Of a DNA stretch of 64,000 nt, positions 40,130 through 64,000 are shown piece by piece. Positions within the stretch are counted from its first letter, which is position 1. Every line of letters begins with the position of its first letter. The DNA is taken from positions 4,025-68,024 of the forward strand of contig CAYZWF010000005.1 of NCBI GenBank assembly GCA_964482135.1, in the 5' to 3' direction. The stretch comes from an uncultured Rhodospirillaceae bacterium (GTDB lineage: Bacteria; Pseudomonadota; Alphaproteobacteria; UBA11136). A program made the position numbers and the translations under genes. A model generated the notes under the pieces. The model was not told the origin of the DNA. It worked only from the letters and a program-made list of their open reading frames with translations, and did no database searches.

Positions 40130-40438
40130 TTAGGCCTCAACAAGTGCGTCCAAAACCTCTTTGGGTTTTCTTTCCAGGGCGGTTATGAGCACCCGAGCCG
40201 TCCGGTTTGGTTTTCTGCGCTGTTTCTTGCGCTCCCAGGATTGAAGTGTCGAAAGTTTGAAGCCAAACATATCCGCGAATTGTTTCTGTGAGAGCGCAAG
40301 GTTTTCCCTGACGGATTTTACGTCAACGTCTTCCGGAACTTTCAGGGCACGGATATGGACCCGTGAGTCATCTCCATCCAGGTAGGCGGCAATATCGGCG
40401 CGAGCCTCTTTGATTGATTGACGTAATGTACCGGTCAT
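40130..40438 (-). CDS. XRE-family HTH antitoxin (HigA2/YiaG-like)
   Basis: MTGTLRQSIKEA...VDVKSVRENLALSQKQFA..FG..LSTLQSWER; ATGA overlap with toxin stop. Confidence 0.8.
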   Translation of the reverse strand: MTGTLRQSIKEARADIAAYLDGDDSRVHIRALKVPEDVDVKSVRENLALSQKQFADMFGFKLSTLQSWERKKQRRKPNRTARVLITALERKPKEVLDALVEA

Positions 40439-40773
40439 TTGGCCCTCCGTTTCTTGCTGTCCTTGATCAACTTGGTGATTTTCTTCAGTTCCGCCTTCTC
40501 GTTCTCCGTTAAATCCGTTTTTCGATTTTTTGGATAACAAGCCAGGAAAAAAACCTCGCTATCACCGGAATGGAAATAATAAATCAGCCTTGACCGGCCC
40601 CCGGTTCCGAACTGCCGTATCTTTCTGGCGCCGCCGGTTTTAGGGACAACGCCGCCCAACTCCGGATTAAGCGCCAGTTTCGTCTGAACGGCCTCCATAT
40701 GCCGCGCCGTGAACACCCCGCGCATTGCTTTTTTGAAAGCCTTCGGAGTGATGAATATTATTTTACGTCACAT
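40435..40773 (-). pseudogene. RelE/HigB2-like toxin with in-frame TGA at codon 2 (intact ORF only from ATG 40725)
   Basis: ATG TGA CGT AAA ATA ATA TTC ATC ACT CCG AAG GCT TTC in frame with NPELGGVVPKTGGARKIR...RLIYYF...FFLACYPKNRKTDLT. Confidence 0.65.
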
Positions 40774-40790
40774 AGTATGAACTATATGAC
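40767..40790. promoter_or_regulatory. Inverted-repeat operator at the TA promoter
   Basis: GTCACATAGT-N4-ACTATATGAC (9/10 pairing); TATAGT lies 7 nt before ATG 40773 on minus strand. Confidence 0.6.
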
Positions 40791-41031
40791 AATGTCATAC
40801 AATCCCCCAAAAAAAACGAGGCCCATAAGATGGTTACGAGTCATATAGGGCCCAGGAATCCGCAGATTTAGGTATTCCCCCCCGGAAGCGGGCGCACTGC
40901 GCCCCTTGATTAAGGAGTATATTCCTATATTGGCGGAGGAATGTCAAGGAGAACATGGCGGGGGGACGGATCAACCGGGGAGAAGTTTCATGCCGGCGGT
41001 GCCTGTGACATCCGCGCAAGGGATGAAACGG

Positions 41032-41436
41032 CTATTTCCTGTCCCAGCCACTCCAATTCATACTCTTGGGCTTTATTACAGAGCTGGCGTTGATTTCGTT
41101 GAGCGTTTCCGACAGGTGCAGGAGAACCTTCAGCATTACCGGGTCCATCTTGTCCAGCCGCGCCTTGAAAGCTTTCTTGGAAATAGTTACCAGGGAGCAC
41201 TTCTCCGTTGTAACCGCCCCTGCATTGCGGGGAACATCATTGATCAGAGCCAATTCACCGAAGATGCTGCCCTTGCGCAGAGTCGCAATGGTTCGCGGGT
41301 TTTCAGTTCGCGTACCCTTGCGAATTTCCACGCTTCCTTCGCTGATCATATAGGCCGCATCGGGCATATCCCCTTCGTCGAAGACCATCTTGTTGGCCTC
41401 GAGGGTGATTTTCTTGAATGCTTCCGAATGCGGCAA
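41032..41436 (-). CDS. Stand-alone cyclic-nucleotide-binding domain protein
   Basis: VFDEGD..D.AYMISEGSVEI, GSIFGELALI..PRNA. Confidence 0.85.
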   Translation of the reverse strand: MPHSEAFKKITLEANKMVFDEGDMPDAAYMISEGSVEIRKGTRTENPRTIATLRKGSIFGELALINDVPRNAGAVTTEKCSLVTISKKAFKARLDKMDPVMLKVLLHLSETLNEINASSVIKPKSMNWSGWDRK

Positions 41437-41600
41437 CGGTACCCCCCAGTCGTCTTCGTATTAGAGGGGCATAATTCTTAATAATCACTTACCAGAATCA
41501 GCCGAAGACCGCGGCGCCAGTTGCCGCAACCGCGGGGGTTTTTGCGTTCCGATGAATGTCTGCCTTGGGTCAGGGTTCGTTAAGGACGGCGCAGCAGCGG

Positions 41601-41694
41601 CTAGCCGTCGCCGTCGCCCGCCGTATCCGCCTTGTCCAAATCCTCACGCAGCATGGCGAAGGTGTAATGGTCGCACCAGCGGCCGTCGATGCGC
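41601..41694 (-). pseudogene. Displaced copy of the 3' end of the RimJ-like GNAT gene
   Basis: Encodes RIDGRWCDHYTFAMLREDLDKADTAGDGDG*; 41635-41694 matches 42445-42504 at 55/60 nt. Confidence 0.85.
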
Positions 41695-41753
41695 GGATTC
41701 CGGACATGTCTCTCGGATGTGGCCCCCCGGGAGACATCAGATACATTTAATGC

Positions 41754-41782
41754 TTGCCATATTATAGATAACATAATATGTT
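41754..41782 (+). promoter_or_regulatory. higBA promoter/operator
   Basis: TTGCCA-N17-TATGTT overlapped by perfect IR CATATTAT-N7-ATAATATG (41758-41780); ATG 41789 would be leaderless. Confidence 0.65.
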
Positions 41783-41788
41783 GTGCTT

Positions 41789-42064
41789 ATGATAAAGTCC
41801 TTCGCCACGGGCCGCACCGAAAGGCTTTTTTCAACGGGGAAGCCCATTAAGGGCGTGGATACCGACATTGCTCTGAAGCGGCTGGACGCGCTGCGCGCCG
41901 CCAAAAGTCTACAAGACATATCGCCGCTGAAAAGCGTCGGACTGCATAAGCTGGGCGGGGACCGCAAGGGTCAATGGGCCATGAACGTCAACGGACCATG
42001 GAGGGTTTGTTTCCGGTTTCGCGCCGGCGACGCCTATGACGTGGAAATTACCGATTATCACTAA
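41789..42064 (+). CDS. higB: HigB toxin (RelE/ParE superfamily)
   Basis: MIKSF, LHKLGGDRKGQWAMNVNGPWRVCFRF, VEITDYH. Confidence 0.92.
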   Translation: MIKSFATGRTERLFSTGKPIKGVDTDIALKRLDALRAAKSLQDISPLKSVGLHKLGGDRKGQWAMNVNGPWRVCFRFRAGDAYDVEITDYH

Positions 42065-42099
42065 GCTCCAACTATCGGCAGGCCAAGGAGGGCCGTCAC

Positions 42100-42390
42100 A
42101 TGACACGAATTAAAACACATCCCGGAAGCATTCTGCGGGAGGAACTGGAGGCGCGGAATCTTTCCGCGAACGCCCTGGCCCGCGCATTGCGCGTTCCACC
42201 AAATAGAATAACGGAGATACTCAACCAGGATCGCGGCATTTCACCGGATACCGCCCTACGTTTTTCGAGATATTTTGAAACCAGCGCCGAATTCTGGATG
42301 AATCTGCAAACCGCCCATGATTTGTCCGTTACCGAACAGGAGCATGGAGAAAAAATAGCCGCCGACGTAGCCGGTGCGACGGCGGCCTAG
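42100..42390 (+). CDS. higA: HigA antitoxin
   Basis: HPGSILREEL, LARAL.VPPNRITEI, ISPDTALRFSRYF.TSAEFWMNLQ. Confidence 0.93.
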   Translation: MTRIKTHPGSILREELEARNLSANALARALRVPPNRITEILNQDRGISPDTALRFSRYFETSAEFWMNLQTAHDLSVTEQEHGEKIAADVAGATAA

Positions 42391-52271: not shown

Positions 52272-52837
52272 TGTGTCCTGTCCTGTCTCGAAACCAAAAA
52301 AATATATGGAGTGACAAAAATAGCCAACCCCCCCACTGCGCCCGGTTCATTAGCCCCAAGATATACCTTACCCAAGGGGTGGTCACATTCAAATCCCAGA
52401 ATCCGATGGGGGCTTGTCGAAAGCCTCCCGCGACGAAACAAGAATGCAACCAAACAGCAGACGCGTCGGGCACAATACACAGTGCGGCGGTGCGGCTCAA
52501 GCCTAAGAATCACTCCGTCGCCGACTTTAAAAATATGGTTCGGAGAGGCTGAAAGAGGCGGAAAACTCACGTTTTTAATTTATAAATTTTATAAGAAAAA
52601 GAATTACTGTAACCATGATGTAACTAAAGGATAAGCACGGATGTCACCAAGGCGTAACTCACATCCAGGGTAATTTTTTGCCCCGCATCGGTACCGCAGC
52701 CGTCCTCTTTTTTTGCTGTGCGCCGGGGCCACCCCTCCCCATCTTGAAGAAAGGCGCGGAACGCGCTACCCCTCACCGGAGGTTTTTCCTCCCGCCGCCA
52801 TCCAATCGAAAAAGCCAATGGAGAAAGTTAAAAAAAG

Positions 52838-54323: not shown

Positions 54324-54420
54324 AACAACCGGGGGGCGATGGACCCCCGTCATCGCGGGCCTTAAGGTGGGTCCAACAAGATTTTTATTCTTTCTAATTT
54401 TTCCTGGGGAGGGAAAAACA

Positions 54421-56562
54421 ATGCCTGATGGTACTACCGCAACAACCGCGTTTGGGGCCTGTCCCCATGACTGTCCCGACACCTGCGCCATGCTGTTCGA
54501 TATCGAGGATGGAAAAGTCACCGGCGTAAGTGGCAGCAGAGAACACCCCATGACCAACGGCAGTCTCTGCGTCAAGCTGAAGGATTATGAAAAACGCATG
54601 TATCATCCCGATCGCCTGTTGCATCCCATGCGCCGTACCGGGCCCAAGGGCAGCAAGCAGTTCGAACGCATTACCTGGGATGAGGCGCTGGATGAAATCG
54701 CCGGCAAATGGAAGGCCATCATAGAAGAGCATGGGCCCCAGGCCATCGTGCCCTATAGCTATCTGGGCCATCAGGGACTGGTTCACGGCCTCAATGGCGG
54801 CGACGCCTTCTTTAACAGACTGGGCGCCACGGTATGTGAACGCACCTTTTGCGGCGAAGGCTCCTGTACTGCCTGGTTGACCACGGTTGGCCCCACCGCG
54901 GGTCTCGACGTGGAGAGTTATATCCACTCGAAATATATCGTCATCTGGGCCTGTAACAGCGTCAGCACCAACCTGCATCACTGGGCCATTATCCAGGATG
55001 CCAGAAAAAAAGGCGCCAAGGTGGTGGTTATCGATGCCTATAAATCACGCACCGCCAAAGAAGCCGATTGGCATATTTGTCCAAAACCCGGAACCGACGG
55101 CGCTCTGGCCATGGCCCTCATCAACAGCATTATCGAACAGGGTCTGGTGGATAAGGAATACGTGGATAATTACACCGTCGGTTATGAGGAACTGGCGGAG
55201 CGCGCCAAGGATCGCACCCCGGAATGGGCATCAGAGATTACCGGCGTCGCCGCCGAGGACATCCGCCAGCTGGCCAAGGATCTGGCCACCGAGCAACCCG
55301 CCGCCATCCGCATGGGCGTGGCGCTGGAACGCCATTTCGGTGGCGGTCAAACCATCCGTGTGGTGACCTGTATCCCGGGACTGACCGGCGCATGGCGGCA
55401 TATCGGCGGGGGAGTTACACAATTTCCGGTTTGGGAACATCCCTACAAATTCGATGTGATATCTCGACCGGATCTTATTCCCGAAGGCACGCGGGTCATT
55501 AACGCCCTGCAGATAGGCCGCGCGCTGACCGGTGAAATGGATCTCGATATTCCCATCAAATCGATGATGTTCTGGAATGCAAATCCGGTCACCCAGGCGC
55601 CGGAAACGGACAAGATCGTCGAAGGCTTGATGAATGAAGATATGTTCACGGTCTGCGCCGAGCATTTCATCAGCGATACCGCGTCTTACGCGGATATCCT
55701 TTTGCCCGCCTCCATGGGCGCCGAGATGGAAGATATGGTCCTGTCGTGGGGTCACTTGTATCTCACCTATAACGCCAAGAGCGTTGAGTCCCCCGGAGAA
55801 GCCATACCCAACAATGAAATCTTCCAGCGTCTGGCCGCGCGCATGGGCTTTGAAGACGAACAGTTCAAATGGTCGGATTCCCAATGTCTGGAAAACTATG
55901 TTGATTGGGAGTCGCCCGCATGTGACGGCATCGATCTCGATTATATGCGTGAGAACGGTTTTGCCCGTTTGACCGTGGGAACCCCGGACGACCGTTGTCC
56001 CCATAAGGAAGGCAACTTCCCGACCCCATCCGGCAAATGTGAATTCAAGCTGGATGGCGCGGTTAACTTCGTCGCCGGACCCTTCCGTCAAATGTATGAG
56101 GGGTTTCAACCGGGTGAACCGCTGGATGACCTGCCCGATTATGTTCCCTCGAGGGAAACGCCGGAAACCAACCCGGAACTGGCGAAGAAATACCCCTTGA
56201 ATATTGTCTCACCCAAGAGCCACGGTTTCTTGAATTCCTGTTACGCCAATATGGATCACAAGATTAAAGGCCAGGGCGAACAATTCGTTTTGATTAACGC
56301 GGCGGACGCAGACCCCAGAGGCATAAAAGAGGGCGATAAAGTTCGCGTCTTTAATGACCGCGGCGGTTTTGTAGGTGATGCCAAGGTCACCGACGACGTC
56401 AATGCGGGGGTTATCGTCGCCACCCTGGGCTATTGGCGGCAATTAAACGAGGGGACGGTTAATTCCATCAGTTCCGCCGAGTTCGTCAATATGGGACATG
56501 CACCGTCCTTTTCCGACAATCTGGTGGAGGTGGGACTCACCAACCGCGGACCGGGAGACTGA
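54421..56562 (+). CDS. Molybdopterin (Mo-bisPGD) oxidoreductase, uncharacterised subfamily, cytoplasmic
   Basis: CPHDCPDTC...LCVK Fe-S motif, HPDRLLHPMRR, RITWDEALDEI, C-terminal molydop_binding domain; no Tat signal. Confidence 0.9.
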   Translation: MPDGTTATTAFGACPHDCPDTCAMLFDIEDGKVTGVSGSREHPMTNGSLCVKLKDYEKRMYHPDRLLHPMRRTGPKGSKQFERITWDEALDEIAGKWKAIIEEHGPQAIVPYSYLGHQGLVHGLNGGDAFFNRLGATVCERTFCGEGSCTAWLTTVGPTAGLDVESYIHSKYIVIWACNSVSTNLHHWAIIQDARKKGAKVVVIDAYKSRTAKEADWHICPKPGTDGALAMALINSIIEQGLVDKEYVDNYTVGYEELAERAKDRTPEWASEITGVAAEDIRQLAKDLATEQPAAIRMGVALERHFGGGQTIRVVTCIPGLTGAWRHIGGGVTQFPVWEHPYKFDVISRPDLIPEGTRVINALQIGRALTGEMDLDIPIKSMMFWNANPVTQAPETDKIVEGLMNEDMFTVCAEHFISDTASYADILLPASMGAEMEDMVLSWGHLYLTYNAKSVESPGEAIPNNEIFQRLAARMGFEDEQFKWSDSQCLENYVDWESPACDGIDLDYMRENGFARLTVGTPDDRCPHKEGNFPTPSGKCEFKLDGAVNFVAGPFRQMYEGFQPGEPLDDLPDYVPSRETPETNPELAKKYPLNIVSPKSHGFLNSCYANMDHKIKGQGEQFVLINAADADPRGIKEGDKVRVFNDRGGFVGDAKVTDDVNAGVIVATLGYWRQLNEGTVNSISSAEFVNMGHAPSFSDNLVEVGLTNRGPGD

Positions 56563-56640
56563 CCCGGGGACGAGGCGGCGGCGTAAGGGTCAGGGTACGT
56601 CAGAGACTGCGGCCCTAAAAAGATAGAAAACAAACCCATG

Positions 56641-56674
56641 AAAAACCCCGCTGGTTCAACCGGCGGGGTTTTTT
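56641..56674 (+). terminator. Intrinsic terminator after the Mo enzyme gene
   Basis: AAAAACCCCGCTGG-TTCAA-CCGGCGGGGTTTTTT. Confidence 0.8.
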
Positions 56675-56918
56675 GGTGGCTCTCAACTGCCGTCATCCGT
56701 CTTCGTGGAGGGAACCGGCTCTGCTGTTCCATTTCACCCTTCCCAGTGAGAGGGATCATGATTTCCCCGCATGATTTCCTTACGGCCCCCATGAAGTTAA
56801 CCTTCATCTCATATTCATGTTCTGGATTGTAATGACAGGCAACGCTTCATCTCTGAATCCACCGGGCCATCTTTCAGGAACCTTCTGTATGGCCAAAACG
56901 AGGAGAGAATAAGGAATC

Positions 56919-57452
56919 ATGAATTACAAAAAAATCTTTGTCGGCACGGTGTGCGCCCTGTCCGCCCTGTCCGCCATAAACGCATATGCGGAGGGGAATC
57001 CCGAATATGTCAAATTCCCCACGGGTTACGAGACATCCTTTGCCAACTACACGACCATGAACCGTGACGGTAAAGAGCAAGTGGCAAAGATGTATGCCAA
57101 CGACGCCGCCATATCCAGCTACAAAAAGGGGCAGACGGCGGCTCCGGGTTCCGTTGTCGTCATGGAAGTCTATAAGCCCAAAAAAGACGCCGATGGTAAA
57201 TCCATTGTGGGCAGTGACGGCATCTACGAAATTGGCAAGCTCGCCGCGGTCGCCGTCATGGAACGGAGGGACGCATGGGAGGCCGCGTATTCACCGGATC
57301 ACAGGCTGGGCAATTGGGGATTCGCCATATACAAACCCGATGGCACCCCAAAACCCAATAAGCTGGCTTGCGTCGAATGTCATTCACCGCTGGAAGATGA
57401 GGATTTTATCTTCTCCTATCAACAGCTTATGGATTACGTGAAGTCCAATTAA
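56919..57452 (+). CDS. Cytochrome P460-superfamily protein (c'-beta-like)
   Basis: Signal peptide, FP.GY, GSVVVMEV, GNWGFA, single C-terminal CVECH, DFIFS. Confidence 0.8.
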   Translation: MNYKKIFVGTVCALSALSAINAYAEGNPEYVKFPTGYETSFANYTTMNRDGKEQVAKMYANDAAISSYKKGQTAAPGSVVVMEVYKPKKDADGKSIVGSDGIYEIGKLAAVAVMERRDAWEAAYSPDHRLGNWGFAIYKPDGTPKPNKLACVECHSPLEDEDFIFSYQQLMDYVKSN

Positions 57453-57583
57453 CGCAACCAGGAGCCGGGCAGACATGCTCGGTAGAACGGCGGATTAAAA
57501 TTTAAGATGCGGCGTAAGAGGCGGGGGGTTAGCCGTCTTCGTGGAGACGGTCGAATTCGTCACGCCCGAAACCGATGAAGCCG

Positions 57584-58177
57584 TCAATTCTTGCGCAGGA
57601 CCACCGCTCCTTGTGCGAGGCTGGCATCGAGGTCGGTTTCGGGAGCTTCCTTGTGGACCAGGTTCTGGTGACAGTCGATGCAGGTCGCCCCTTCCGTTTC
57701 CATCTTCTTATGGGCCTTTTTCGCCGATTTGCCAGCCCCGCGCGGGTTCTTGTGGCAGCCGCGGCAGGTGATGCTGTCCCAGTCCTTCATCAGCATCCGC
57801 GCCTTGTGGGCCATTCTCAGGCGGTGCTTGTTGAATGCCTTCTTGGTCGAATAGTCGTCGACCAGTTCGTGGTAGATGGCGCGGGTCCCGTCGATTACGT
57901 GGGTAGCGAGCGCAAGGTGGAAGTTGGCGAGACCCTTGGGTATATGACAATCACTGCATTCCGGCTGGGCCCCCATGGCGCCGCGGTAGTGGGTGGATTT
58001 CTTGAATTCCTCGGCCGGGTAGGTCATGGAATGGCAGCCGACGCAAAAGCCGGTGCTTGAAACCGCCGCCTCGCCGCCCAGGACGATAGCCAGCAAGGCC
58101 AGCATGCCACCGGCGCCCCAAAGCAGCGCGCCCAGATTGCCGGTAATGTATCGCCAGATTTTCGTCATCCTTGGCAT
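57584..58177 (-). CDS. cycB: Tetraheme membrane cytochrome cM552 (NapC/NirT family)
   Basis: N-terminal TM; CVGCH, CSDCH, CRGCH, CIDCH; last gene of the hao cluster. Confidence 0.9.
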   Translation of the reverse strand: MPRMTKIWRYITGNLGALLWGAGGMLALLAIVLGGEAAVSSTGFCVGCHSMTYPAEEFKKSTHYRGAMGAQPECSDCHIPKGLANFHLALATHVIDGTRAIYHELVDDYSTKKAFNKHRLRMAHKARMLMKDWDSITCRGCHKNPRGAGKSAKKAHKKMETEGATCIDCHQNLVHKEAPETDLDASLAQGAVVLRKN

Positions 58178-58189
58178 CGGCCTGTAACG

Positions 58190-58894
58190 CTATTCCTTGG
58201 GAATGGGTTTCGCTTTTTCCTGGAATTCATCGTGAAACGGCGGCGTCGGCGGCCCGGTGAAGGTCCCTTCCAGCTTGAAATGCCCGTGCATCGCCTTTTC
58301 ATTTCGCACCGCCTTTTCGAAATCGAAGGTGTATTTAGGGTCAACCTTGGGCGTGAAGGGGGTGTATGGCTTCTTGGCGCCGGACCACCCCGACCCCTCG
58401 TAGTTGAGGTGACAGCCCTTACAGCGCTCGATGAACTCGAATTCCTCCCCCGCCTCCACCAGCACCTGGCGGGGAGTGGTCGTGCCCTCGTTCTCGAAAG
58501 CGATGCCGGCCTTGCGGTGGACGAGCCGGTAATCGAGGCCGGGGCCGTGGCAGGATTCGCACCCTACCCCCACCAAATATTCGCTGGGGTCTTCCATGTC
58601 GTAACCGCCCTCATGGCTGAAACCGGTGGTGTGGCAGGCCACGCATTTTTCGTCCTCTGTGTATTCTTTGTCCGGGTCCAGCCCCGCCTTTTTCTTGGCC
58701 TCGGCCTTTTCACCGGCGGCCAGCGACTTCAGCGCCTTGGCATGCGCCGTCTGTTGCCAGGATTCGAACTCGCTTTTGTGGCAGCCGCCGCATTTCTTGC
58801 GGCCCTCGAACTCAAACTCTTCGGCAGTGGCGGCAAATGTCCCGAAAGCAAGAATGCAGACGGCAAATGCGCTCAGGAAGACAGCCCGGGACAT
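58190..58894 (-). CDS. cycA: Tetraheme cytochrome c554
   Basis: FEGRKKCGGCH, CVACH, GVGCESCHGPG, CKGCHLNYEGS.W.GAK.PYTPFTP.VD.KYTF, closely matching Nitrosomonas c554. Confidence 0.93.
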   Translation of the reverse strand: MSRAVFLSAFAVCILAFGTFAATAEEFEFEGRKKCGGCHKSEFESWQQTAHAKALKSLAAGEKAEAKKKAGLDPDKEYTEDEKCVACHTTGFSHEGGYDMEDPSEYLVGVGCESCHGPGLDYRLVHRKAGIAFENEGTTTPRQVLVEAGEEFEFIERCKGCHLNYEGSGWSGAKKPYTPFTPKVDPKYTFDFEKAVRNEKAMHGHFKLEGTFTGPPTPPFHDEFQEKAKPIPKE

Positions 58895-58989
58895 CTTTCG
58901 TACCTATGAATTGGAAAACCTATCCACGACTTCTGGCCCTATCGTAGGCGCATCCGATGACCCTTCGTTAGTGCCAGGAACTAATATTT

Positions 58990-60045
58990 TTATAGGGCCG
59001 GAGGCGTTGTTTCGGTCTCGGCCTCTTGCTCCGCCGGCGGCACCCTGTAGACCCAGAAGTCGCCGTGCTGGTAGACCAGTTCGATCTCCGTAAGCTCCAT
59101 GGGCCGCGAGTTGGTAAACGGCAATGCCTGGGCAAGCAGAGTCCGGGAAGAGGCCTCGTCGGTCAGGAAATAGACCCGGACCACCGTCTTGCCCAGCCGT
59201 TGCGTGGTGTAGTTCTCGTAGCCCTCTTCTTTCAGCCATTTCTTGATGGAGGAGGCCATTCCGTGGGCGTCCTCGCCCTTGGCGAAGTCCTTGAATCCAA
59301 TACCGAAGCGTTCCGGATACAAGGCCCCGACCTTGTAAGTGTCCTGTACCGAGAGGACCAGGAAGGACTCGCGGCCACCGACCAGGGCGCGTAATTTTTC
59401 GGCCGCCGCCGCCTGGCGGTCGGTAAGCAGGGCCTCGGTGAATTGTTCGAACAGGACTTCGCCGGATTCTCCCTTGTTGAGATTCCAGAAGCTGCGCTCC
59501 ACGGCCTTGATGGGCTTTTGATACCTGTTCCACGATTCGGGCAACAGAACGGGTTGCGCCAGGTGGCGGTCGAAAAGAACGTCGATCCCCGCCAAAAGCT
59601 TCAAGCGGCGGGATATGTCCCACCAGCCGATCACCGGCGCCCCCTCGGGCGCGTGTTCGCGGATGGCCTCGGCAAGGACCGCCGTCTCGGAAACATCGCT
59701 GGCGGCGTTGATCACCGGCTCGGCGAGATAGTTTCGCCAATCGAGGAGGACAGGCTCGCCTTTATTCCGGGCGGCGGTGTGAAAGACGGCGATGGGTTTG
59801 TCTATTTGATCCACCCGCAGTTCGTATTTGCGGATAACCAGGTTCGGACTGTCCACGCCGCCTTCTCCCGCCAGCCCCAGATCAGGGAAAGCCTCGACGC
59901 CTCCTTCTTCGACCATGGTGTAGACGTAAGGCGCTTTCTGGGGCGTCGGCTGGAAAATCGACCACGCCACCCATCCGCCCAAGAAGAACCCTCCTGACAC
60001 CAGGAGAATTCCGGCTGTCAGGAGGGTTTTCCGATTGCCCGTCAT
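58990..60045 (-). CDS. haoB: Hydroxylamine oxidation protein HaoB
   Basis: N-terminal TM, PVLLDWRN..AEP, GWWDISRRL.LLAG, YGDF-like tail; lies between haoA and cycA. Confidence 0.82.
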   Translation of the reverse strand: MTGNRKTLLTAGILLVSGGFFLGGWVAWSIFQPTPQKAPYVYTMVEEGGVEAFPDLGLAGEGGVDSPNLVIRKYELRVDQIDKPIAVFHTAARNKGEPVLLDWRNYLAEPVINAASDVSETAVLAEAIREHAPEGAPVIGWWDISRRLKLLAGIDVLFDRHLAQPVLLPESWNRYQKPIKAVERSFWNLNKGESGEVLFEQFTEALLTDRQAAAAEKLRALVGGRESFLVLSVQDTYKVGALYPERFGIGFKDFAKGEDAHGMASSIKKWLKEEGYENYTTQRLGKTVVRVYFLTDEASSRTLLAQALPFTNSRPMELTEIELVYQHGDFWVYRVPPAEQEAETETTPPAL

Positions 60046-60101
60046 GGGTCAATCACAGAGGGAGATATGGATTGCCGGGCACCAAGAAGGACGCGGCGTG
60101 C

Positions 60102-61829
60102 TCATCTGATATCCTCTCCCATGTCTTCTTTTTTGCGTCCGCGGCGCCACCCCCATAGAGCGAGAGAGCCGACCAGCAGCATGCCGCCGCCGCCGACGCC
60201 AAGGGACGCCTTCTTAAAGAAGGTGTCGAGTTTGGGCAGATCGCTGCGCTTGCCTCCTTCGAGTTTAGCGATCCTGTCTTTCAACGACGCCATCTCGCGA
60301 ATCCGGGTGTTTTCGTCCTGGATTTCGGCATAGGCCCCCATTAACGGCGCCCAACCATTCGAGTAGGTGTAGTTGCCCGGATTGAAGTGGGCGAGACCCT
60401 TGTAGAGCTTGATCAGGTCGTGTTCCCACATCTCCGTGTAGACGCGGTCCATATGCGTCGGGTTGTTGTCCTTGGCCCAGAACAGACCGTAGAAGCCGCC
60501 GGGGGCGTCTTTTTCAGGCGCTGGAGGCGGTGGGCGGTTGGTTTTCTGGCCAACCATCAGACCGTCGGCATAGAGCTGTTTGACCACCTTTCCGGCCTCT
60601 TGTTCCACCTTGAGCCCTTGTATGGAGCCATTGTCGATTTGGCTGAGCCTGGCCCTGGTAAAGCTTTCGGAGTGACAGTTGGTACAGGTCTTGACCCAGG
60701 CTTCCTGGCGCGACGTGAACCATTTGTGATCCAGGTTGTCGGCGATCGCCGGCTGTGGGTTAAAGCCCCAGCGCACCTTGCGCACCAGGTTGTGTCCGAA
60801 CTTGCCCTTGTTCTCCATGTGACAGAAGGCGCAGGTCGGTGAGGTCTGGCCGCCCTTGTCGATGGCGTCCTTGAGGGGCACTTCCCAGTTCCACTCGTCG
60901 CCGAGCAACTGATAAATGGTGCCGTGTTTGGACATCATGTAGTTCTCGAACTCGTTATGATCGACGCCGTTGTGGCAAATGCCGCAGGCCTGGGGCTTGC
61001 GCGATTCGGCGGCTGAGAACTGGTGCCGGGTGTGGCAGGTGTCGCACTTGTTCTGGTTGATGTGACACTCGGTGCAGCCTTCGGCGACATCCCGTTGTTC
61101 CATGGCGGCCCAGATCGCCGTTTCCACGTTGGCCTTGTAGTCGAGGGCGTGGGACGGACGGCCCTTCGGCCACTGGTCCTGGGGCCAGTTCAGGGTGTCG
61201 CGTTCGGATTCGCGCTCGGCGAACTCCTGGAGATGGCAGGTACCGCAGACGTCGGCGGTGGGCATGCGCAAATCCTTGCGGTGATCGCCTTTCTCGGCCA
61301 AGACTTCGACGTGGCAATCCATGCACATGACTTCATTCAGCTGTTCCTTGGCGCCGAGCTTGCCAAGGGAGCGCAGGTTGTCTTCGACTTCTTTTAATTT
61401 TTTCTTCTTGTAGGCTCTGGGGTCGCCGTCGGACAGGTTGCGGATAGCGTTGATGTCGGCGTGCACGCTCTTCTTCCATGCGACGACGGCGCCGGGTGTT
61501 TCCTTTTCGTGGCAGCTTATGCATTCGGAACGTGTCGAGACGTCCTTCACCGATGTGGGTGGCTTGTAGAAGCTCAGCGGATCGAGATAGGAACTCATGG
61601 GGATCGGCTCCCAGTACTTTGCGAGAGTCCCCTTTCCGGCTCCCTGTTCGGGATCACGGTAACGTTTCTTCAGCGCATTATAGAGATCCTTCGGCGGCGC
61701 CGATTTCGACACCCCAAGGGCGTCGTAAAGCTCGTTGGGAATATCGGCCACGGCCTCTCCGGCCAAGCCGGCCATCCACGAAATCGCCACGGCCACAGCC
61801 GTCGTCCTCGTCCAAAACAGGATCCGCAT
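60102..61829 (-). CDS. haoA: Octaheme hydroxylamine oxidoreductase (575 aa)
   Basis: GGAGG RBS before ATG 61829; signal peptide; 8 CxxCH; GAGKG...YWEPI, WP.GRPSHALDY.AN, CHNGVDHN, HFNPGNYTYSNGW; C-terminal TM anchor. Confidence 0.95.
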   Translation of the reverse strand: MRILFWTRTTAVAVAISWMAGLAGEAVADIPNELYDALGVSKSAPPKDLYNALKKRYRDPEQGAGKGTLAKYWEPIPMSSYLDPLSFYKPPTSVKDVSTRSECISCHEKETPGAVVAWKKSVHADINAIRNLSDGDPRAYKKKKLKEVEDNLRSLGKLGAKEQLNEVMCMDCHVEVLAEKGDHRKDLRMPTADVCGTCHLQEFAERESERDTLNWPQDQWPKGRPSHALDYKANVETAIWAAMEQRDVAEGCTECHINQNKCDTCHTRHQFSAAESRKPQACGICHNGVDHNEFENYMMSKHGTIYQLLGDEWNWEVPLKDAIDKGGQTSPTCAFCHMENKGKFGHNLVRKVRWGFNPQPAIADNLDHKWFTSRQEAWVKTCTNCHSESFTRARLSQIDNGSIQGLKVEQEAGKVVKQLYADGLMVGQKTNRPPPPAPEKDAPGGFYGLFWAKDNNPTHMDRVYTEMWEHDLIKLYKGLAHFNPGNYTYSNGWAPLMGAYAEIQDENTRIREMASLKDRIAKLEGGKRSDLPKLDTFFKKASLGVGGGGMLLVGSLALWGWRRGRKKEDMGEDIR

Positions 61830-62019
61830 AAGTACCTCCCCACTCCCGCCGCAAAAACCGCGGACGGGAAAAAATTTAAGCGAGCATGAATGAGTTTCAG
61901 AAAAACCGCGAACGGGCGTAAGGACCAGCTTCTGAAAAAGGCATGGGCCACTGGCTCCATGGGTTTCATGGCGCCGATGAATCCATAACCAAGGCCTTGA
62001 GAAGAATGATGTTTGGTAA

Positions 62020-62090
62020 ACTGGCCCAAAGTATATTTCAACCACTGGCACTATCCTGGCGGCCAATAACGGATATAATGTTGGGCCAGT
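62020..62090. promoter_or_regulatory. Candidate MocR operator in the hao/MocR divergent intergenic region
   Basis: ACTGGCCCAA (62020-62029) and TTGGGCCAGT (62081-62090) form a perfect 10-bp IR; extra ACTGGC at 62044 and 61950. Confidence 0.6.
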
Positions 62091-62143
62091 CGCTGAATTA
62101 TTTGCTGACTGGGAGCTACAGGAGACCCGGTTGAAGGGGGGGG

Positions 62144-63712
62144 GTGTCCGTTTCCATGCAATTGCCACTGAAAGTCTACCACGGCAAAAAACAGCCACTC
62201 CAGACGCAGATATTCGATCAAATCCGCGGATTAATCCTGGAGGGCCGGCTGAAGCCGGGCACGCCGATTCCCGCCACCCGCGCCCTGGCCGAACAGCTGG
62301 GCGTTTCGCGCAACACGGTCACCCTTGCTTACGAACAACTGATCATCGAAGGCTATCTTCAGACCCGCAGGGCGGTCGGCACCTTCGTCAGTTTCGATTT
62401 ACCGGCGTCGTCCCTGTTATCGGACAGCGGTGAGGCCGTATCCCATGACAATTCCGAACGGCTGATCGACCGCCAACCCGTGCGCTTCCGGGGCACTCCC
62501 CATCCGGTCGTCAACCGCAACCGTCACAACCTCGCGGTCGATTTCTGGGTGGGACGGCCCGATGCCAGGTCTTTCCCTTCAAAGACTTGGCGGCGCCTGC
62601 TCAATCGGGAGCTTACCCACCCCAGCTCCAGCCTCACGGAATATGGGGAGCCGGGAGGGCTGCCCGCCCTGCGCCAGGCCATAGCCGATCATCTGGGGCC
62701 TGCCCGCGGCATTTCCACGACACCGGAACAGGTGATTATCGTCGCCGGTTGCCAGGAGGCGCTGAACGTCGCGGCGCGTCTTTTCGTCGGCCAGGATACT
62801 CCGGTGGTCGTCGAAAACCCCTGCTACCAAGGGGCCTCGAACCTCATGGAGAGTTACGGCGCCAGGCTGATCCCGGTTGCGGTCGACGGTGAGGGCCTGG
62901 ACGTCGCCCAGCTGCCCCAGAAACCGGTCAGCCTTGCCTATGTGACACCGTCACACCAATACCCCATGGGGGCGACACTTTCCCTGGAACGCCGGTTACG
63001 TTTGTTGGATTGGGCGTGGAAAACCGGCGCCTATATCATCGAGGATGACTATGACAGCGATTTCCGATACGACGGCTCGCCGTTAACCGCGCTGAAGGGC
63101 TTGGATAAGCGCGGCTGTGTCATTTACATGGGGACTTTTTCAAAGTCGGTTGGCGCCGGTATCCGGATCGGCTATCTGGTGGTTCCCCGCGAACTCGTCG
63201 AGCCGGCGACCACCGTCAAGGCCCTGCTGGATAACGGTCATCCCTGGCTCGACCAGGCGGTGCTCGCCGATTTCATTTCAAGCGGCACCTTCTCCAACCA
63301 TCTCCGGCGAATCCGGTACACCTATAAACTGCGCCGCGACTGTCTCATTGAGGCCTTGGGCAGGCACTTTGGAGACGTGGCGTTGTCCGGCGTTATGGGA
63401 GGCATGCATCTGGTTTGGCATCTGCCGCGGAGCTTCCCGAAGGCAAAAAAACTCCAGGAGATGGCGCTGGATCGCGGTATCGGCATCTATTCGCTGCAGG
63501 ACGGAGCCGCCAGCGTCTTCGGAAGCAATAACTTTGACGAGCGGGCAATCATGCTCGGCTATTCGTCGACCTCGGAAAAGCAAATCCGCGAAGGCATAGC
63601 CCGAATCGCCAAGGTCGTTCCCGTGAAGCGGAGGGCCCAGCCGTCCGGTGCCGACAATTTATTTTTCTCAAGCCGCAAAAAACCCGGACCGGCCCTCAAC
63701 GCCAGACAATAA
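62144..63712 (+). CDS. MocR/GabR-family PLP-dependent transcriptional regulator (start 62144 or 62156)
   Basis: GntR wHTH (LAEQLGVSRNTVTLAYEQL..EGY) plus aminotransferase-like domain (YVTPSHQYP.G, IIEDDYDSDF, YMGTFSKS). Confidence 0.93.
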   Translation: MSVSMQLPLKVYHGKKQPLQTQIFDQIRGLILEGRLKPGTPIPATRALAEQLGVSRNTVTLAYEQLIIEGYLQTRRAVGTFVSFDLPASSLLSDSGEAVSHDNSERLIDRQPVRFRGTPHPVVNRNRHNLAVDFWVGRPDARSFPSKTWRRLLNRELTHPSSSLTEYGEPGGLPALRQAIADHLGPARGISTTPEQVIIVAGCQEALNVAARLFVGQDTPVVVENPCYQGASNLMESYGARLIPVAVDGEGLDVAQLPQKPVSLAYVTPSHQYPMGATLSLERRLRLLDWAWKTGAYIIEDDYDSDFRYDGSPLTALKGLDKRGCVIYMGTFSKSVGAGIRIGYLVVPRELVEPATTVKALLDNGHPWLDQAVLADFISSGTFSNHLRRIRYTYKLRRDCLIEALGRHFGDVALSGVMGGMHLVWHLPRSFPKAKKLQEMALDRGIGIYSLQDGAASVFGSNNFDERAIMLGYSSTSEKQIREGIARIAKVVPVKRRAQPSGADNLFFSSRKKPGPALNARQ

Positions 63713-63771
63713 GAGACTATCATCAAGAACCGGTGGCGCCGAAAGGCGCCCGGCGCGCCCAGTCACTATGT

Positions 63772-64000
63772 TCAGTCACCCTCATGGAGGCGGTCGAATT
63801 CGCCTTTTTCGAATTCGATGAAGCTGTCGATCATACGCCGGAACACGGCCTCGGCGATGCCGGGCGCCAGCCCCGCCTGTTCGGCCTTCGCGCGCATGCG
63901 GGTGATGATGTCCTCGATGCGGGCGCGGTCCACCACGCCTTCGCGCGAGGGCTTGAAGCGCGCCGCCTCGCCCACATAGAAGCTACGTTCGGCCATAAGC
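63772..64000 (-). CDS. Chorismate mutase type II / isochorismate-pyruvate lyase-like protein (partial, runs off the window)
   Basis: AER..YV.EAARFK, V.D.ARIE.II...R..A...GL. Confidence 0.7.
   Translation of the reverse strand, partial: LMAERSFYVGEAARFKPSREGVVDRARIEDIITRMRAKAEQAGLAPGIAEAVFRRMIDSFIEFEKGEFDRLHEGD

What the first reader, a model, noticed from the sequence alone, without database searches (positions are those of the whole stretch)
60102..61829. HaoA retains the oxidative-type signature residues
Seen: HFNPGNYTYSNGW aligns with Nitrosomonas HVNPGGWTYTEGW, keeping the Tyr467 equivalent that cross-links heme P460. CHNGVDHN keeps the Asp267/His268 pair, and a C-terminal TM anchor is present. 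Known: the Tyr cross-link biases HAO-family enzymes toward oxidation, while reductive homologues lack it. Inference: a true NH2OH-to-NO oxidoreductase.
Basis: partly seen in the sequence, partly recalled or inferred. Interest (0 to 1): 0.72.

Follow-up and report, generated by a model that had tools for sequence, protein, structure and literature searches.

The report
Oxidative-type hydroxylamine oxidoreductase on acquired island
The gene is an intact, textbook oxidative-type hydroxylamine oxidoreductase, which is unremarkable in itself, but it sits with its full electron-transfer partners on a 7-kb acquired island in an uncultured alphaproteobacterium that does not look like a classical nitrifier.

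Summary
Window 60102-61829 (-) encodes a 575-aa HaoA. It aligns end to end with Nitrosomonas europaea HAO (E about 1e-222, 58% identity). It has eight CXXCH motifs. Tyr489 aligns with NeHAO Tyr467, and Asp290/His291 with Asp267/His268. A hydrophobic C-terminal tail is present.

These residues are not a special retention. Tyr and His are invariant in 121 of 121 close homologues, and Asp in 120 of 121.

haoA heads a complete haoA-haoB-cycA(c554)-cycB(cM552) operon. A divergent MocR-type regulator and a P460-family gene flank it, matching the gene content of the Nitrosococcus hao locus.

The host is an uncultured alphaproteobacterium. No amoCAB was found in the 64-kb window, and no AMO family is listed among the genes of the 8 kb beyond it.

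A close relative (92-96% nt identity in the flanks) has 276 bp where this genome has a 7.2-kb block, so the cluster is an accessory island.

The best reading is a real NH2OH-oxidising enzyme (product NO by analogy) feeding the quinone pool. Its use is probably scavenging or detoxifying hydroxylamine rather than classical nitrification.

It is a new member of a known kind, of modest interest.

The parts
60102..61829 (-). haoA, octahaem hydroxylamine oxidoreductase, 575 aa
   Evidence: PF13447 at 499 bits. phmmer to NeHAO 4FAS/1FGJ/6M0P gives E about 1e-222 over the full length. Foldseek top hits are NeHAO with TM 0.84.
61746..61829 (-). Predicted signal peptide (residues 1-28, cleavage AVA|DI)
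   Evidence: The mature NeHAO N-terminus, Asp25 (DISTVPDE), aligns with query Asp29 (DIPNELYD).
61062..61076 (-). CTECH, the fourth haem motif, equivalent to the catalytic P460 haem site of NeHAO (C229-H233)
   Evidence: Alignment. Coordinates. The proximal His is invariant in 121 of 121 homologues.
60957..60962 (-). Asp290-His291, equivalent to NeHAO Asp267/His268
   Evidence: PMC3814345 names these as functional residues.
60363..60365 (-). Tyr489, equivalent to the haem-cross-linking Tyr467 of NeHAO
   Evidence: It lies in an ungapped stretch of the alignment and is invariant in 121 of 121 homologues. The reductive Kuenenia HAOr (6H5L) has Trp in this column.
60105..60209 (-). C-terminal glycine-rich hydrophobic segment plus basic tail (putative membrane anchor)
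   Evidence: Mean Kyte-Doolittle hydropathy is 1.47. It aligns with the NeHAO tail and is present in 120 of 121 homologues.
58990..60045 (-). haoB, 351 aa, with an N-terminal transmembrane helix
   Evidence: TIGR04392 haoB_nitrify scores 328 bits against a cut-off of 200, and the match starts at residue 11, which supports the long start.
58190..58894 (-). cycA, tetrahaem cytochrome c554
   Evidence: PF13435 at 94.7 bits. NF043010 scores 339.7 bits, below its equivalog cut-off of 400. Four CXXCH motifs.
57584..58177 (-). cycB, membrane-anchored tetrahaem NapC/NirT-type cytochrome (cM552-like quinone reductase)
   Evidence: PF03264 at 154.5 bits. Four CXXCH motifs and an N-terminal hydrophobic helix.
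62156..63712 (+). MocR-type regulator (GntR HTH plus aminotransferase-like domain), divergent from haoA
   Evidence: PF00392 plus PF00155. It is 63% identical, without gaps over 488 aa, to the regulator next to haoA in Nitrosococcus halophilus. The ORF list starts it at GTG 62144, but the alignment supports ATG 62156.
61922..61959 (-). Conserved block upstream of haoA: TGGnnC-N3-TGGnnC-N7-TTTTCA-N6-TGGnnC (candidate operator or promoter)
   Evidence: It lies at about the same distance (roughly 90-130 nt) from the haoA ATG in the window and in L001, L044, L061 and L062/63. It occurs nowhere else in 1.04 Mb of loci and in none of the shuffles. The pattern was defined after seeing the sequences.
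56919..57452 (+). P460-superfamily cytochrome of the c'-beta-Met type
   Evidence: PF16694. E 1e-58 to N. europaea cytochrome c'-beta-Met, PDB 7S5O. It has Met, Arg and Ala at the Met79, Arg46 and Ala109 positions. The Nitrosococcus CytL has Lys at the Met position.
56588..63771 (.). 7.2-kb accessory block carrying all of the above, absent from a close relative
   Evidence: blastn of L058/L060 against the window shows 92-96% identity up to 56587 and again from 63772. The relative has 276 bp in between.
57539..57624 (-). Vestigial copy of the 3' end of the chorismate mutase gene, just downstream of cycB
   Evidence: It translates to RIDGFIGFGRDEFDRLHEDG*, compared with the real C-terminus MIDSFIEFEKGEFDRLHEGD* encoded at 63772 onwards. 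Local alignment score is 47 against 22.9 +/- 2.3 for shuffles.

Best explanation
HaoA is a periplasmic octahaem hydroxylamine oxidoreductase of the oxidative type. By homology it should form a trimer in which Tyr489 of one subunit cross-links the fourth haem of the next subunit to make the P460 cofactor. With Asp290/His291 acting as proton acceptors, it should oxidise NH2OH, with NO as the product by analogy to NeHAO.

Electrons would pass through the seven bis-His haems to cytochrome c554 (CycA). From there they would go to the membrane-anchored NapC/NirT-type CycB and into the quinone pool. This is the hydroxylamine:ubiquinone redox module. HaoB is the conserved membrane partner.

The whole module, together with a MocR-type regulator and a c'-beta-Met cytochrome, is a horizontally acquired block of about 7 kb with the gene content of the Nitrosococcus hao locus. 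It sits in an uncultured alphaproteobacterium that respires with an aa3 oxidase.

No ammonia monooxygenase is in sight and a sister genome lacks the block. The most likely use is therefore energy-yielding scavenging or detoxification of hydroxylamine made by other organisms or by side reactions, not classical lithoautotrophic nitrification.

Shown here: the sequence features, the operon, the island and the host class. Inferred: the cross-link, the trimer, the product, the electron route and the physiological role.
For: - **Homology to NeHAO.** The alignment is full length, with Tyr467, Asp267 and His268 in register.
- **Haem sites.** There are eight CXXCH motifs. Sixteen His are invariant, which fits eight proximal ligands, seven distal ligands and the catalytic His291.
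- **Fold.** The best fold match is NeHAO, TM 0.84.
- **Partners.** HaoB scores above its equivalog cut-off, and c554 and NapC/NirT tetrahaem partners follow in operon order.
- **Locus architecture.** The same content (P460-family gene, MocR-type regulator, haoA, haoB, cycA, cycB) is found in Nitrosococcus halophilus, and the regulator is 63% identical. N. oceani lists Noc0890-0895 in the same order, with most of these genes induced by ammonium or hydroxylamine (PMC3772326).
- **Role of the Tyr.** Its presence or absence is reported to track the direction of catalysis, and NeHAO and KsHAO make NO (PMC8042395).
- **Host class.** Proteins at 90% identity or more are labelled Alphaproteobacteria MAG. 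Alphaproteobacteria-like gene order (from my own knowledge of these arrangements): a CcrM-like methylase with RAMA domain, two ATP synthase b subunits, a ctaCDBGE-SURF1-thrC arrangement, and DUF4170 just beyond the window.
- **No AMO or pMMO family** among the ORFs scanned across the window, and none listed for the genes of the next 8 kb.
- **Island.** A relative with 92-96% nt identity in the flanks lacks the 7.2-kb block.
- **Spread of the module.** It occurs in housekeeping contexts in Arenicellales, Acidiferrobacteraceae and Ferrovibrionaceae MAGs and in other metagenome contigs. Thioalbus denitrificans carries the regulator with haoAB only.
- **Gene is maintained.** The identical protein is found on 24 or more contigs from several samples.
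Against: - No biochemistry exists for this protein or its 13-member clade, which contains only unnamed environmental sequences.
- The rest of the genome could not be searched, so an AMO or another source of hydroxylamine elsewhere is not excluded.
- The AlphaFold model is mediocre (pLDDT 65). It is below 50 around the catalytic haem region and the Tyr loop, so it adds no independent support for the geometry.
- NeHAO Tyr334, near the active site, is Asn357 here. Nitrosococcus has the same WxFNP, so this is unlikely to be disabling.
- c554 falls short of the NCBIfam equivalog cut-off (339.7 against 400).
- In Ca. Desulfobacillus denitrificans, a non-nitrifier with the same cluster, only haoAB were expressed and a reverse role was suggested (PMC8402940).
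Confidence: 0.7

Rival explanations
1. The host is a genuine, previously unrecognised alphaproteobacterial ammonia oxidiser. An ammonia monooxygenase or another NH3-to-NH2OH enzyme encoded elsewhere supplies the substrate, and HAO with c554 and cM552 is its core energy metabolism.
For: The full haoAB-cycAB set with its Nitrosococcus-type regulator is the inventory that ammonia oxidisers use to conserve energy (PMC11830464 discussion). In Nitrosococcus the amo genes are not next to hao either, so absence nearby is not decisive.
Against: - No AMO or pMMO family was found among the ORFs scanned across the window or the genes listed for the next 8 kb.
- The cluster is a single 7-kb presence/absence block relative to a near-identical genome.
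- Many non-nitrifier lineages carry the same module (PMC8402940), and the cultured denitrifier Thioalbus denitrificans carries the regulator with haoAB.
Confidence: 0.12
2. In vivo the enzyme runs in reverse. It would reduce NO or nitrite to hydroxylamine or ammonium with electrons from the quinol pool through CycB and CycA (a reverse HURM).
For: NeHAO can reduce NO, nitrite and NH2OH in vitro (PMC8042395). A reverse role was proposed for the same cluster in Ca. Desulfobacillus denitrificans (PMC8402940). One related locus pairs haoAB with a cd1-type nirS.
Against: The cross-linking Tyr is present, and the family members that are physiologically reductive lack it (PMC8042395; 6H5L has Trp in that column). 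The locus architecture matches that of oxidising Nitrosococcus.
Confidence: 0.08
3. The cluster is a recently transferred, silent or decaying passenger with no current function in this host.
For: It is an accessory block with a footprint of past recombination, the vestigial chorismate mutase 3' end. Its GC content is slightly below the rest of the window, 58.3% against 61.3%.
Against: All six ORFs are intact, with every catalytic and haem-binding residue present. Third-position GC (0.71-0.78) is close to that of host genes. The identical HaoA is seen on 24 or more contigs from several samples. A conserved upstream block is retained.
Confidence: 0.04

Closest known systems
Nitrosomonas europaea hydroxylamine oxidoreductase (PDB 1FGJ, 4FAS, 4N4N, 6M0P)
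   Same: It is 58% identical over the full length, with the same eight haem motifs, Tyr467, Asp267/His268, a signal peptide and a C-terminal hydrophobic tail. The fold match has TM 0.84.
   Different: NeHAO Tyr334 (WANYP) is Asn here (WGFNP). The host is an alphaproteobacterium with one copy on an island, not a betaproteobacterial nitrifier with several copies.
Nitrosococcus hao locus (N. oceani Noc0890-0895; N. halophilus CP001798 around 1.07 Mb)
   Same: The gene content is the same: a P460-family cytochrome, a GntR/MocR-type regulator, haoA, haoB, cycA and cycB. HaoA is 61.5% identical and the regulator 63%. Both have WxFNP at the NeHAO Tyr334 position (PMC3772326).
   Different: Here the P460-family gene lies beyond cycB instead of beside the regulator. 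It is also the Met (c'-beta-Met) type rather than the Lys-cross-linked CytL. No adjacent multicopper oxidase is present, and the host is not a known nitrifier.
hao cluster of the non-nitrifying denitrifier Ca. Desulfobacillus denitrificans (DSYM_27790-27820)
   Same: It has haoA, haoB, c554 and a further cytochrome in an organism without ammonia monooxygenase, and the role is unresolved (PMC8402940). Its HaoA is 59% identical to the query.
   Different: That HaoA groups with the betaproteobacterial type (WANYP). The query belongs to a separate clade of 13 unnamed environmental sequences.
Reductive HAO homologues (Kuenenia HAOr Kustc0458, PDB 6H5L; epsilonproteobacterial HAOs)
   Same: They share the octahaem fold and the Asp/His region.
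   Different: They lack the cross-linking Tyr (Trp in that column for 6H5L), are about 28% identical, and lack HaoB, c554 and cM552 partners (PMC8042395).

Membership tests
Oxidative octahaem hydroxylamine oxidoreductase (HaoA) | Eight CXXCH haem-binding motifs in the conserved order | tested here: met
   The motifs start at residues 103, 169, 195, 252, 262, 282, 333 and 382. All align with the NeHAO motifs.
Oxidative octahaem hydroxylamine oxidoreductase (HaoA) | Tyr that cross-links the catalytic haem of the neighbouring subunit (NeHAO Tyr467) | tested here: met
   Tyr489 is in register within an ungapped alignment block, and the column is invariant in 121 of 121 homologues. Only presence of the residue is shown, not the cross-link.
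Oxidative octahaem hydroxylamine oxidoreductase (HaoA) | Distal Asp/His pair (NeHAO Asp267/His268) | tested here: met
   Asp290/His291 lie in CHNGVDHN.
Oxidative octahaem hydroxylamine oxidoreductase (HaoA) | Seven bis-His haems plus one five-coordinate haem | tested here: inconclusive
   Sixteen invariant His fit eight proximal ligands, seven distal ligands and the catalytic His. Ligation itself cannot be read from sequence, and the AlphaFold model has low confidence in those regions.
Oxidative octahaem hydroxylamine oxidoreductase (HaoA) | Covalent homotrimer with P460 absorbance (463-475 nm when reduced) and NH2OH oxidation to NO | not testable with these tools
   This needs purified protein. 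The criteria are taken from PMC8042395.
Oxidative octahaem hydroxylamine oxidoreductase (HaoA) | Adjacent haoB partner gene | tested here: met
   TIGR04392 scores 328 bits against a cut-off of 200, and the gene lies immediately downstream.
Hydroxylamine:ubiquinone redox module (HaoAB + c554 + cM552) | Tetrahaem c554 (cycA) and membrane-anchored tetrahaem NapC/NirT cytochrome (cycB) in operon order after haoAB | tested here: met
   PF13435 and PF03264 match, each protein has four CXXCH motifs, and CycB has an N-terminal hydrophobic helix. CycA is below the NCBIfam equivalog cut-off, 339.7 against 400.
Canonical ammonia-oxidising bacterium | Ammonia monooxygenase genes amoCAB in the genome | tested here: inconclusive
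   No AMO, AmoC or Monooxygenase_B family was found among the ORFs scanned across the window or listed for the genes of the next 8 kb.
Reductive HAO (HAOr / epsilon-HAO) | Absence of the cross-linking Tyr | tested here: not met
   The Tyr is present, so the protein is not filed here.
Cytochrome P460 (CytL), for the neighbouring ORF 56919-57452 | Lys that cross-links the haem, and a distal carboxylate | tested here: not met
   Met and Ala occupy these positions, as in N. europaea c'-beta-Met (7S5O). That protein is reported not to oxidise NH2OH.

The most novel reading that the evidence does not exclude
The MocR-haoAB-cycAB block is a mobile 'hydroxylamine-harvesting' module. It would let non-nitrifying marine and engineered-system Proteobacteria use hydroxylamine leaked by nitrifiers or anammox bacteria as a respiratory electron donor, releasing NO.

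Its conserved PLP-dependent MocR-type regulator would sense hydroxylamine directly. Hydroxylamine is a classic PLP-reactive compound, so the sensing could work through oxime formation with the cofactor. The regulator would act at the conserved TGGnnC repeat block upstream of haoA.
Probability: 0.2. Interest if true: 0.7.

Novelty: new member of a known kind. Interest (0 to 1): 0.33.

Why it matters
The enzyme itself adds nothing new to HAO biochemistry. The context is what matters.

A complete, apparently functional hydroxylamine-oxidising electron-transfer module is carried as a gain/loss island by an uncultured alphaproteobacterium. The same module occurs in several other lineages that are not known as nitrifiers.

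If these organisms oxidise free hydroxylamine, they are an unaccounted sink for a nitrification intermediate and an unaccounted source of NO, and indirectly of N2O. Counting hao genes in metagenomes would then overestimate the number of bacterial ammonia oxidisers.

The regulator that travels with hao, including in Nitrosococcus, is uncharacterised. It is a tractable entry point to how hydroxylamine is sensed.

Tried and rejected
- **AlphaFold2 model (32-sequence alignment).** Mean pLDDT was 65, and below 50 across 219-273 and 484-490. It is therefore useless for checking the Tyr-haem geometry. It was used only for a fold match. No trimer or haem-containing model could be made.
- **Papers on active-site residues.** I tried to read Maalcke et al. 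2014 (PMC3894310) on the active-site residues, including the Tyr334-equivalent position, and Xu et al. 2022 on DnfR (PMC8939314). Neither is held. The significance of Tyr334 to Asn therefore rests on my own recollection and is given little weight.
- **Mobile-element signatures on the island.** No integrase or transposase was found, and no clean target-site duplication. The 276 bp in the relative shares only the terminator hairpin with the window.
- **Upstream motif.** It was not found in the Ferrovibrionaceae locus L064, in beta-AOB loci or in haoAB-only loci. The pattern was defined post hoc, so its statistics are only indicative.
- **Neighbour-joining tree.** It was midpoint rooted with no outgroup or support values. 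It is used only to say that the query clade contains no named organism. A first attempt timed out.
- **Cytochrome P460 as a second NH2OH oxidase on the island.** Considered and rejected because the Lys and the carboxylate are absent.
- **Molybdopterin oxidoreductase at 54367-56562.** Considered as part of the module and rejected because the relative that lacks hao also has it.
- **Host taxonomy.** It was not refined beyond class, and the sampling environment of the window's own contigs was not established.
Full report
**The observation**

The reported interval is exactly one ORF on the minus strand. It runs from the ATG at 61829, with a GGGAGG ribosome-binding site 6 nt upstream, to the stop at 60102, giving 575 aa. 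The longer 698-aa ORF listed from GTG 62198 is an artefact of the open frame.

Pfam gives PF13447 (multihaem cytochrome) at 499 bits. A search of PDB sequences gives Nitrosomonas europaea HAO (6M0P, 4FAS, 1FGJ) at E about 1e-222 over the full length. Anammox HAO-like proteins and hydrazine dehydrogenase follow far behind.

I counted along the printed 4FAS alignment. CHNGVDHN lies on CHSGVDHN, and Asp290/His291 fall on Asp267/His268. The alignment has no gap anywhere between residues 359 and 524, so register is not in doubt.

Further features:
- There are eight CXXCH motifs.
- The mature N-terminus of NeHAO (Asp25) aligns with Asp29 after a typical signal sequence.
- The C-terminal ASLGVGGGGMLLVGSLALWGW-RRGRKK aligns with the NeHAO tail and is moderately hydrophobic.

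**How informative it is**

I aligned the 120 best database homologues (56-100% identity) plus NeHAO.
- The Tyr and the His are present in 121 of 121.
- The Asp is present in 120 of 121.
- The proximal His of the fourth haem is present in 121 of 121.
- The hydrophobic tail is present in 120 of 121.

In a 32-sequence alignment, 16 His are invariant. This matches eight proximal ligands, seven distal ligands and the catalytic His. 'Retains the oxidative signature' is therefore true but expected for any member of this clade.

The only active-site-adjacent difference from NeHAO that I found is at NeHAO Tyr334 (WANYP). The query has WGFNP there. Nitrosococcus, a bona fide ammonia oxidiser, has the same WAFNP, so this is a lineage type rather than a defect.

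The contrast case is visible in the same search. The reductive Kuenenia HAOr (6H5L) has Trp in the Tyr column. The literature states that presence or absence of this Tyr tracks oxidative versus reductive catalysis, and that NeHAO and the Kuenenia HAO produce NO (PMC8042395). Asp267, His268 and Tyr467 are cited as the functional trio (PMC3814345).

An AlphaFold2 model was only moderate (pLDDT 65, and below 50 at the catalytic haem region and the Tyr loop). This is usual for haem proteins modelled without cofactors. Its best structural matches are the NeHAO chains (TM 0.84, 59% identity). It adds fold confirmation but no independent geometry.

**The surroundings**

haoA is followed on the same strand by three genes:
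- haoB (58990-60045; TIGR04392 at 328 bits against a cut-off of 200);
- a tetrahaem c554 (58190-58894);
- a tetrahaem NapC/NirT cytochrome with an N-terminal membrane helix (57584-58177).

Together these make the complete hydroxylamine:ubiquinone redox module.

Divergent from haoA is a MocR-type regulator with a GntR HTH and an aminotransferase-like domain (62156-63712). Beyond cycB lies a P460-superfamily cytochrome (56919-57452).

That last protein is not a true cytochrome P460. It matches N. europaea cytochrome c'-beta-Met (7S5O) at E 1e-58. It has Met, Arg and Ala at the positions of Met79, Arg46 and Ala109. The review of this superfamily lists that protein as lacking the Lys cross-link and NH2OH oxidase activity. 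The Nitrosococcus homologue has Lys at that position.

**The host**

Pfam scans of the candidate ORFs scanned across the window found only housekeeping and respiratory genes. Several arrangements look alphaproteobacterial (my reading of the gene order):
- ctaC-D-B-G-E, DUF983, SURF1, thrC and an M16 peptidase;
- ATP synthase a plus two b subunits;
- a CcrM-like methylase with a RAMA domain;
- DsbD, SMC, ETF-QO and TldD.

No AMO, AmoC or Monooxygenase_B family was found. The 8 kb beyond the window end likewise list no AMO family and include DUF4170. Proteins in the same 90% clusters are labelled 'Alphaproteobacteria bacterium' MAG at NCBI.

The identical HaoA occurs on at least 24 contigs from several metagenome samples, the longest 158 kb.

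**The cluster is an island**

A close relative has the same flanking genes: coxB side, TldD, the 713-aa molybdopterin oxidoreductase, then chorismate mutase, GCS2 and the rest. It lacks the P460-family gene, cycB, cycA, haoB, haoA and the regulator (NCBI GCA_016776635.1 and ENA contigs; its TldD is in the same 90% cluster).

At the DNA level, identity is 92% up to window position 56587 and 96% again from 63772. The relative has 276 bp where the window has 7,184 bp. A terminator-like hairpin (56641-56673) is shared.

Just downstream of cycB there is an 86-nt vestigial copy of the 3' end of the chorismate mutase gene. It still translates to RIDGFIGFGRDEFDRLHEDG*. Its alignment score is about 10 standard deviations above shuffles. 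The 6.2-kb cycBA-haoBA-regulator segment is therefore bracketed by direct repeats of that gene end, a footprint of integration or recombination. No integrase is present.

Third-position GC of the island genes (0.64-0.78) is close to that of the host.

**Relatives**

The closest HaoA sequences (70-78% identity) are 12 unnamed environmental proteins. A simple neighbour-joining tree puts the query in that 13-member clade, apart from both Nitrosococcus and the betaproteobacterial nitrifiers.

In species-representative genomes the best matches are Arenicellales, Acidiferrobacteraceae and Guaymas gammaproteobacterial MAGs (72-74%). After these come alphaproteobacterial MAGs, Thioalbus denitrificans (64%), Nitrosococcus (about 61%) and Nitrosospira or Nitrosomonas (about 58%).

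tblastn with the window's proteins shows the regulator-haoA-haoB-cycA-cycB arrangement in four places:
- the Arenicellales and Acidiferrobacteraceae MAGs;
- the Guaymas MAG, where it is split across two contigs;
- a Logan contig next to ccm genes;
- a Ferrovibrionaceae MAG in a housekeeping context.

Many other Proteobacteria have haoAB plus the same regulator without cycAB.

The genuine ammonia oxidiser Nitrosococcus halophilus has the same locus content: a P460-family gene, a MocR-type regulator, haoA, haoB, c554 and NapC/NirT. Its regulator is 63% identical to the window's over 488 ungapped residues, which is as conserved as HaoA itself. N. oceani lists the same order as Noc0890-0895 (PMC3772326). 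The island is thus a Nitrosococcus-type hao locus in an alphaproteobacterial chromosome.

A published precedent for such a cluster in a non-nitrifier is Ca. Desulfobacillus denitrificans, where the role is left open and a reverse reaction is suggested (PMC8402940). Other authors note that haoAB-cycAB is the arrangement that lets ammonia oxidisers conserve energy, whereas methanotrophs use haoAB for detoxification (PMC11830464).

**Mechanism and role**

The best-supported mechanism is the canonical one. A periplasmic trimer carries a Tyr489-haem 4 cross-link (P460). It oxidises NH2OH, with NO as the product by analogy. Electrons pass through c554 and the membrane cytochrome to quinone, and from there to the neighbouring aa3 oxidase or other acceptors.

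What is shown is the sequence, the operon, the island and the host class. The cross-link, the trimer, the product and the electron path are inferred by homology.

For physiology I favour scavenging or detoxification of hydroxylamine, with energy conservation. This is because the module is accessory, is not accompanied by AMO in 72 kb, and is widespread in organisms not known as nitrifiers.

Three rivals remain:
- a hidden AMO elsewhere in the genome, making the host a novel alphaproteobacterial nitrifier;
- reverse operation under low oxygen;
- a silent passenger.

I rate all three as less likely, but none is excluded by the data available.

**A lead on regulation**

A block, TGGnnC-N3-5-TGGnnC-N4-9-TTTTCA-N5-8-YGGnnC, sits about 90-130 nt upstream of the haoA start. 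It is present in the window (61922-61959) and in four other distinct loci of the query's clade, within otherwise unalignable intergenic DNA. It occurs nowhere else in 1.04 Mb of fetched loci and in none of the shuffles. The pattern was defined after seeing the sequences, so this is a lead only.

A MocR-family regulator (DnfR) governs the hydroxylamine-producing dirammox cluster of Alcaligenes (PMC12575085). That is a loose precedent for this family controlling hydroxylamine metabolism.

**Verdict**

The finding is a new member of a known kind. The acquired-island context in a non-nitrifier and the conserved regulator give it modest additional interest.

Noticed in passing
window 56588-63771 versus L058 13726-14001 and L060: The whole P460-family/cycBA/haoBA/MocR block (7.2 kb) is replaced by 276 bp, including a 49-aa ORF, in a relative whose flanks are 92-96% identical. 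It is a clean presence/absence island with no integrase.
   Followed up: yes
window 57539-57624 (compare 63782-63863): A vestigial duplicate of the 3' end of the chorismate mutase gene lies just downstream of cycB. The 6.2-kb cycBA-haoBA-regulator segment is therefore bracketed by direct repeats of that gene end.
   Followed up: partly
window 56919-57452 (+): The ORF that Pfam labels Cytochrome_P460 is of the c'-beta-Met type. It has Met instead of the cross-linking Lys and Ala instead of the distal carboxylate. Its closest structure is N. europaea 7S5O, which is reported not to oxidise hydroxylamine.
   Followed up: yes
window 62156-63712 (+); L066 5887-7452; about 20 other loci (L001, L002, L004, L028, L030-L033, L036, L037, L039, L040, L044, L045, L047, L061, L063-L065): A MocR-type (GntR plus aminotransferase-like) regulator travels with hao genes across Alpha-, Beta- and Gammaproteobacteria, including Nitrosococcus and some Nitrosospira/Nitrosovibrio copies. 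It is absent together with hao in the sister genome. Its effector is unknown. NCBIfam scores it above the PdxR equivalog cut-off (453 against 320).
   Followed up: partly
window 61922-61959 (-); L001 685; L044 3812; L061 9877; L062/L063 9859: A conserved repeat block (TGGnnC x3 around TTTTCA) sits about 90-130 nt upstream of haoA in five distinct lineages. It is a candidate operator or promoter.
   Followed up: partly
window residue 357 of HaoA (nt 60759-60761): NeHAO Tyr334, near the active site, is Asn here. The alignment splits into a WANYP type (betaproteobacterial nitrifiers and Ca. Desulfobacillus) and a WxFNP type (Nitrosococcus and the query clade).
   Followed up: partly
L058 3923-9830 versus window 52272-52837: Between coxB and tldD the sister genome carries an extra terminal-oxidase cluster (COX2, COX1, two COX3, COX4_pro) and DUF2189, which the window lacks. 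This neighbourhood is a hot spot for gain and loss of respiratory genes.
   Followed up: no
window 40130-42390: A low-GC patch (about 53%) holds two toxin-antitoxin pairs (RelE-like with an HTH antitoxin, and HigB-like with an HTH antitoxin) and a small cNMP-binding protein.
   Followed up: partly
window 54367-56562 (+): A cytoplasmic-looking molybdopterin oxidoreductase (713 aa from the internal ATG, no Tat signal seen) reaches no NCBIfam equivalog cut-off. It is native rather than part of the island, because the sister genome has it too.
   Followed up: partly
window 59987-60028: A 19-nt inverted repeat with a 4-nt loop lies inside the 5' end of haoB, in the region coding its transmembrane helix. 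Some gene callers start haoB after it (330 aa instead of 351 aa).
   Followed up: no
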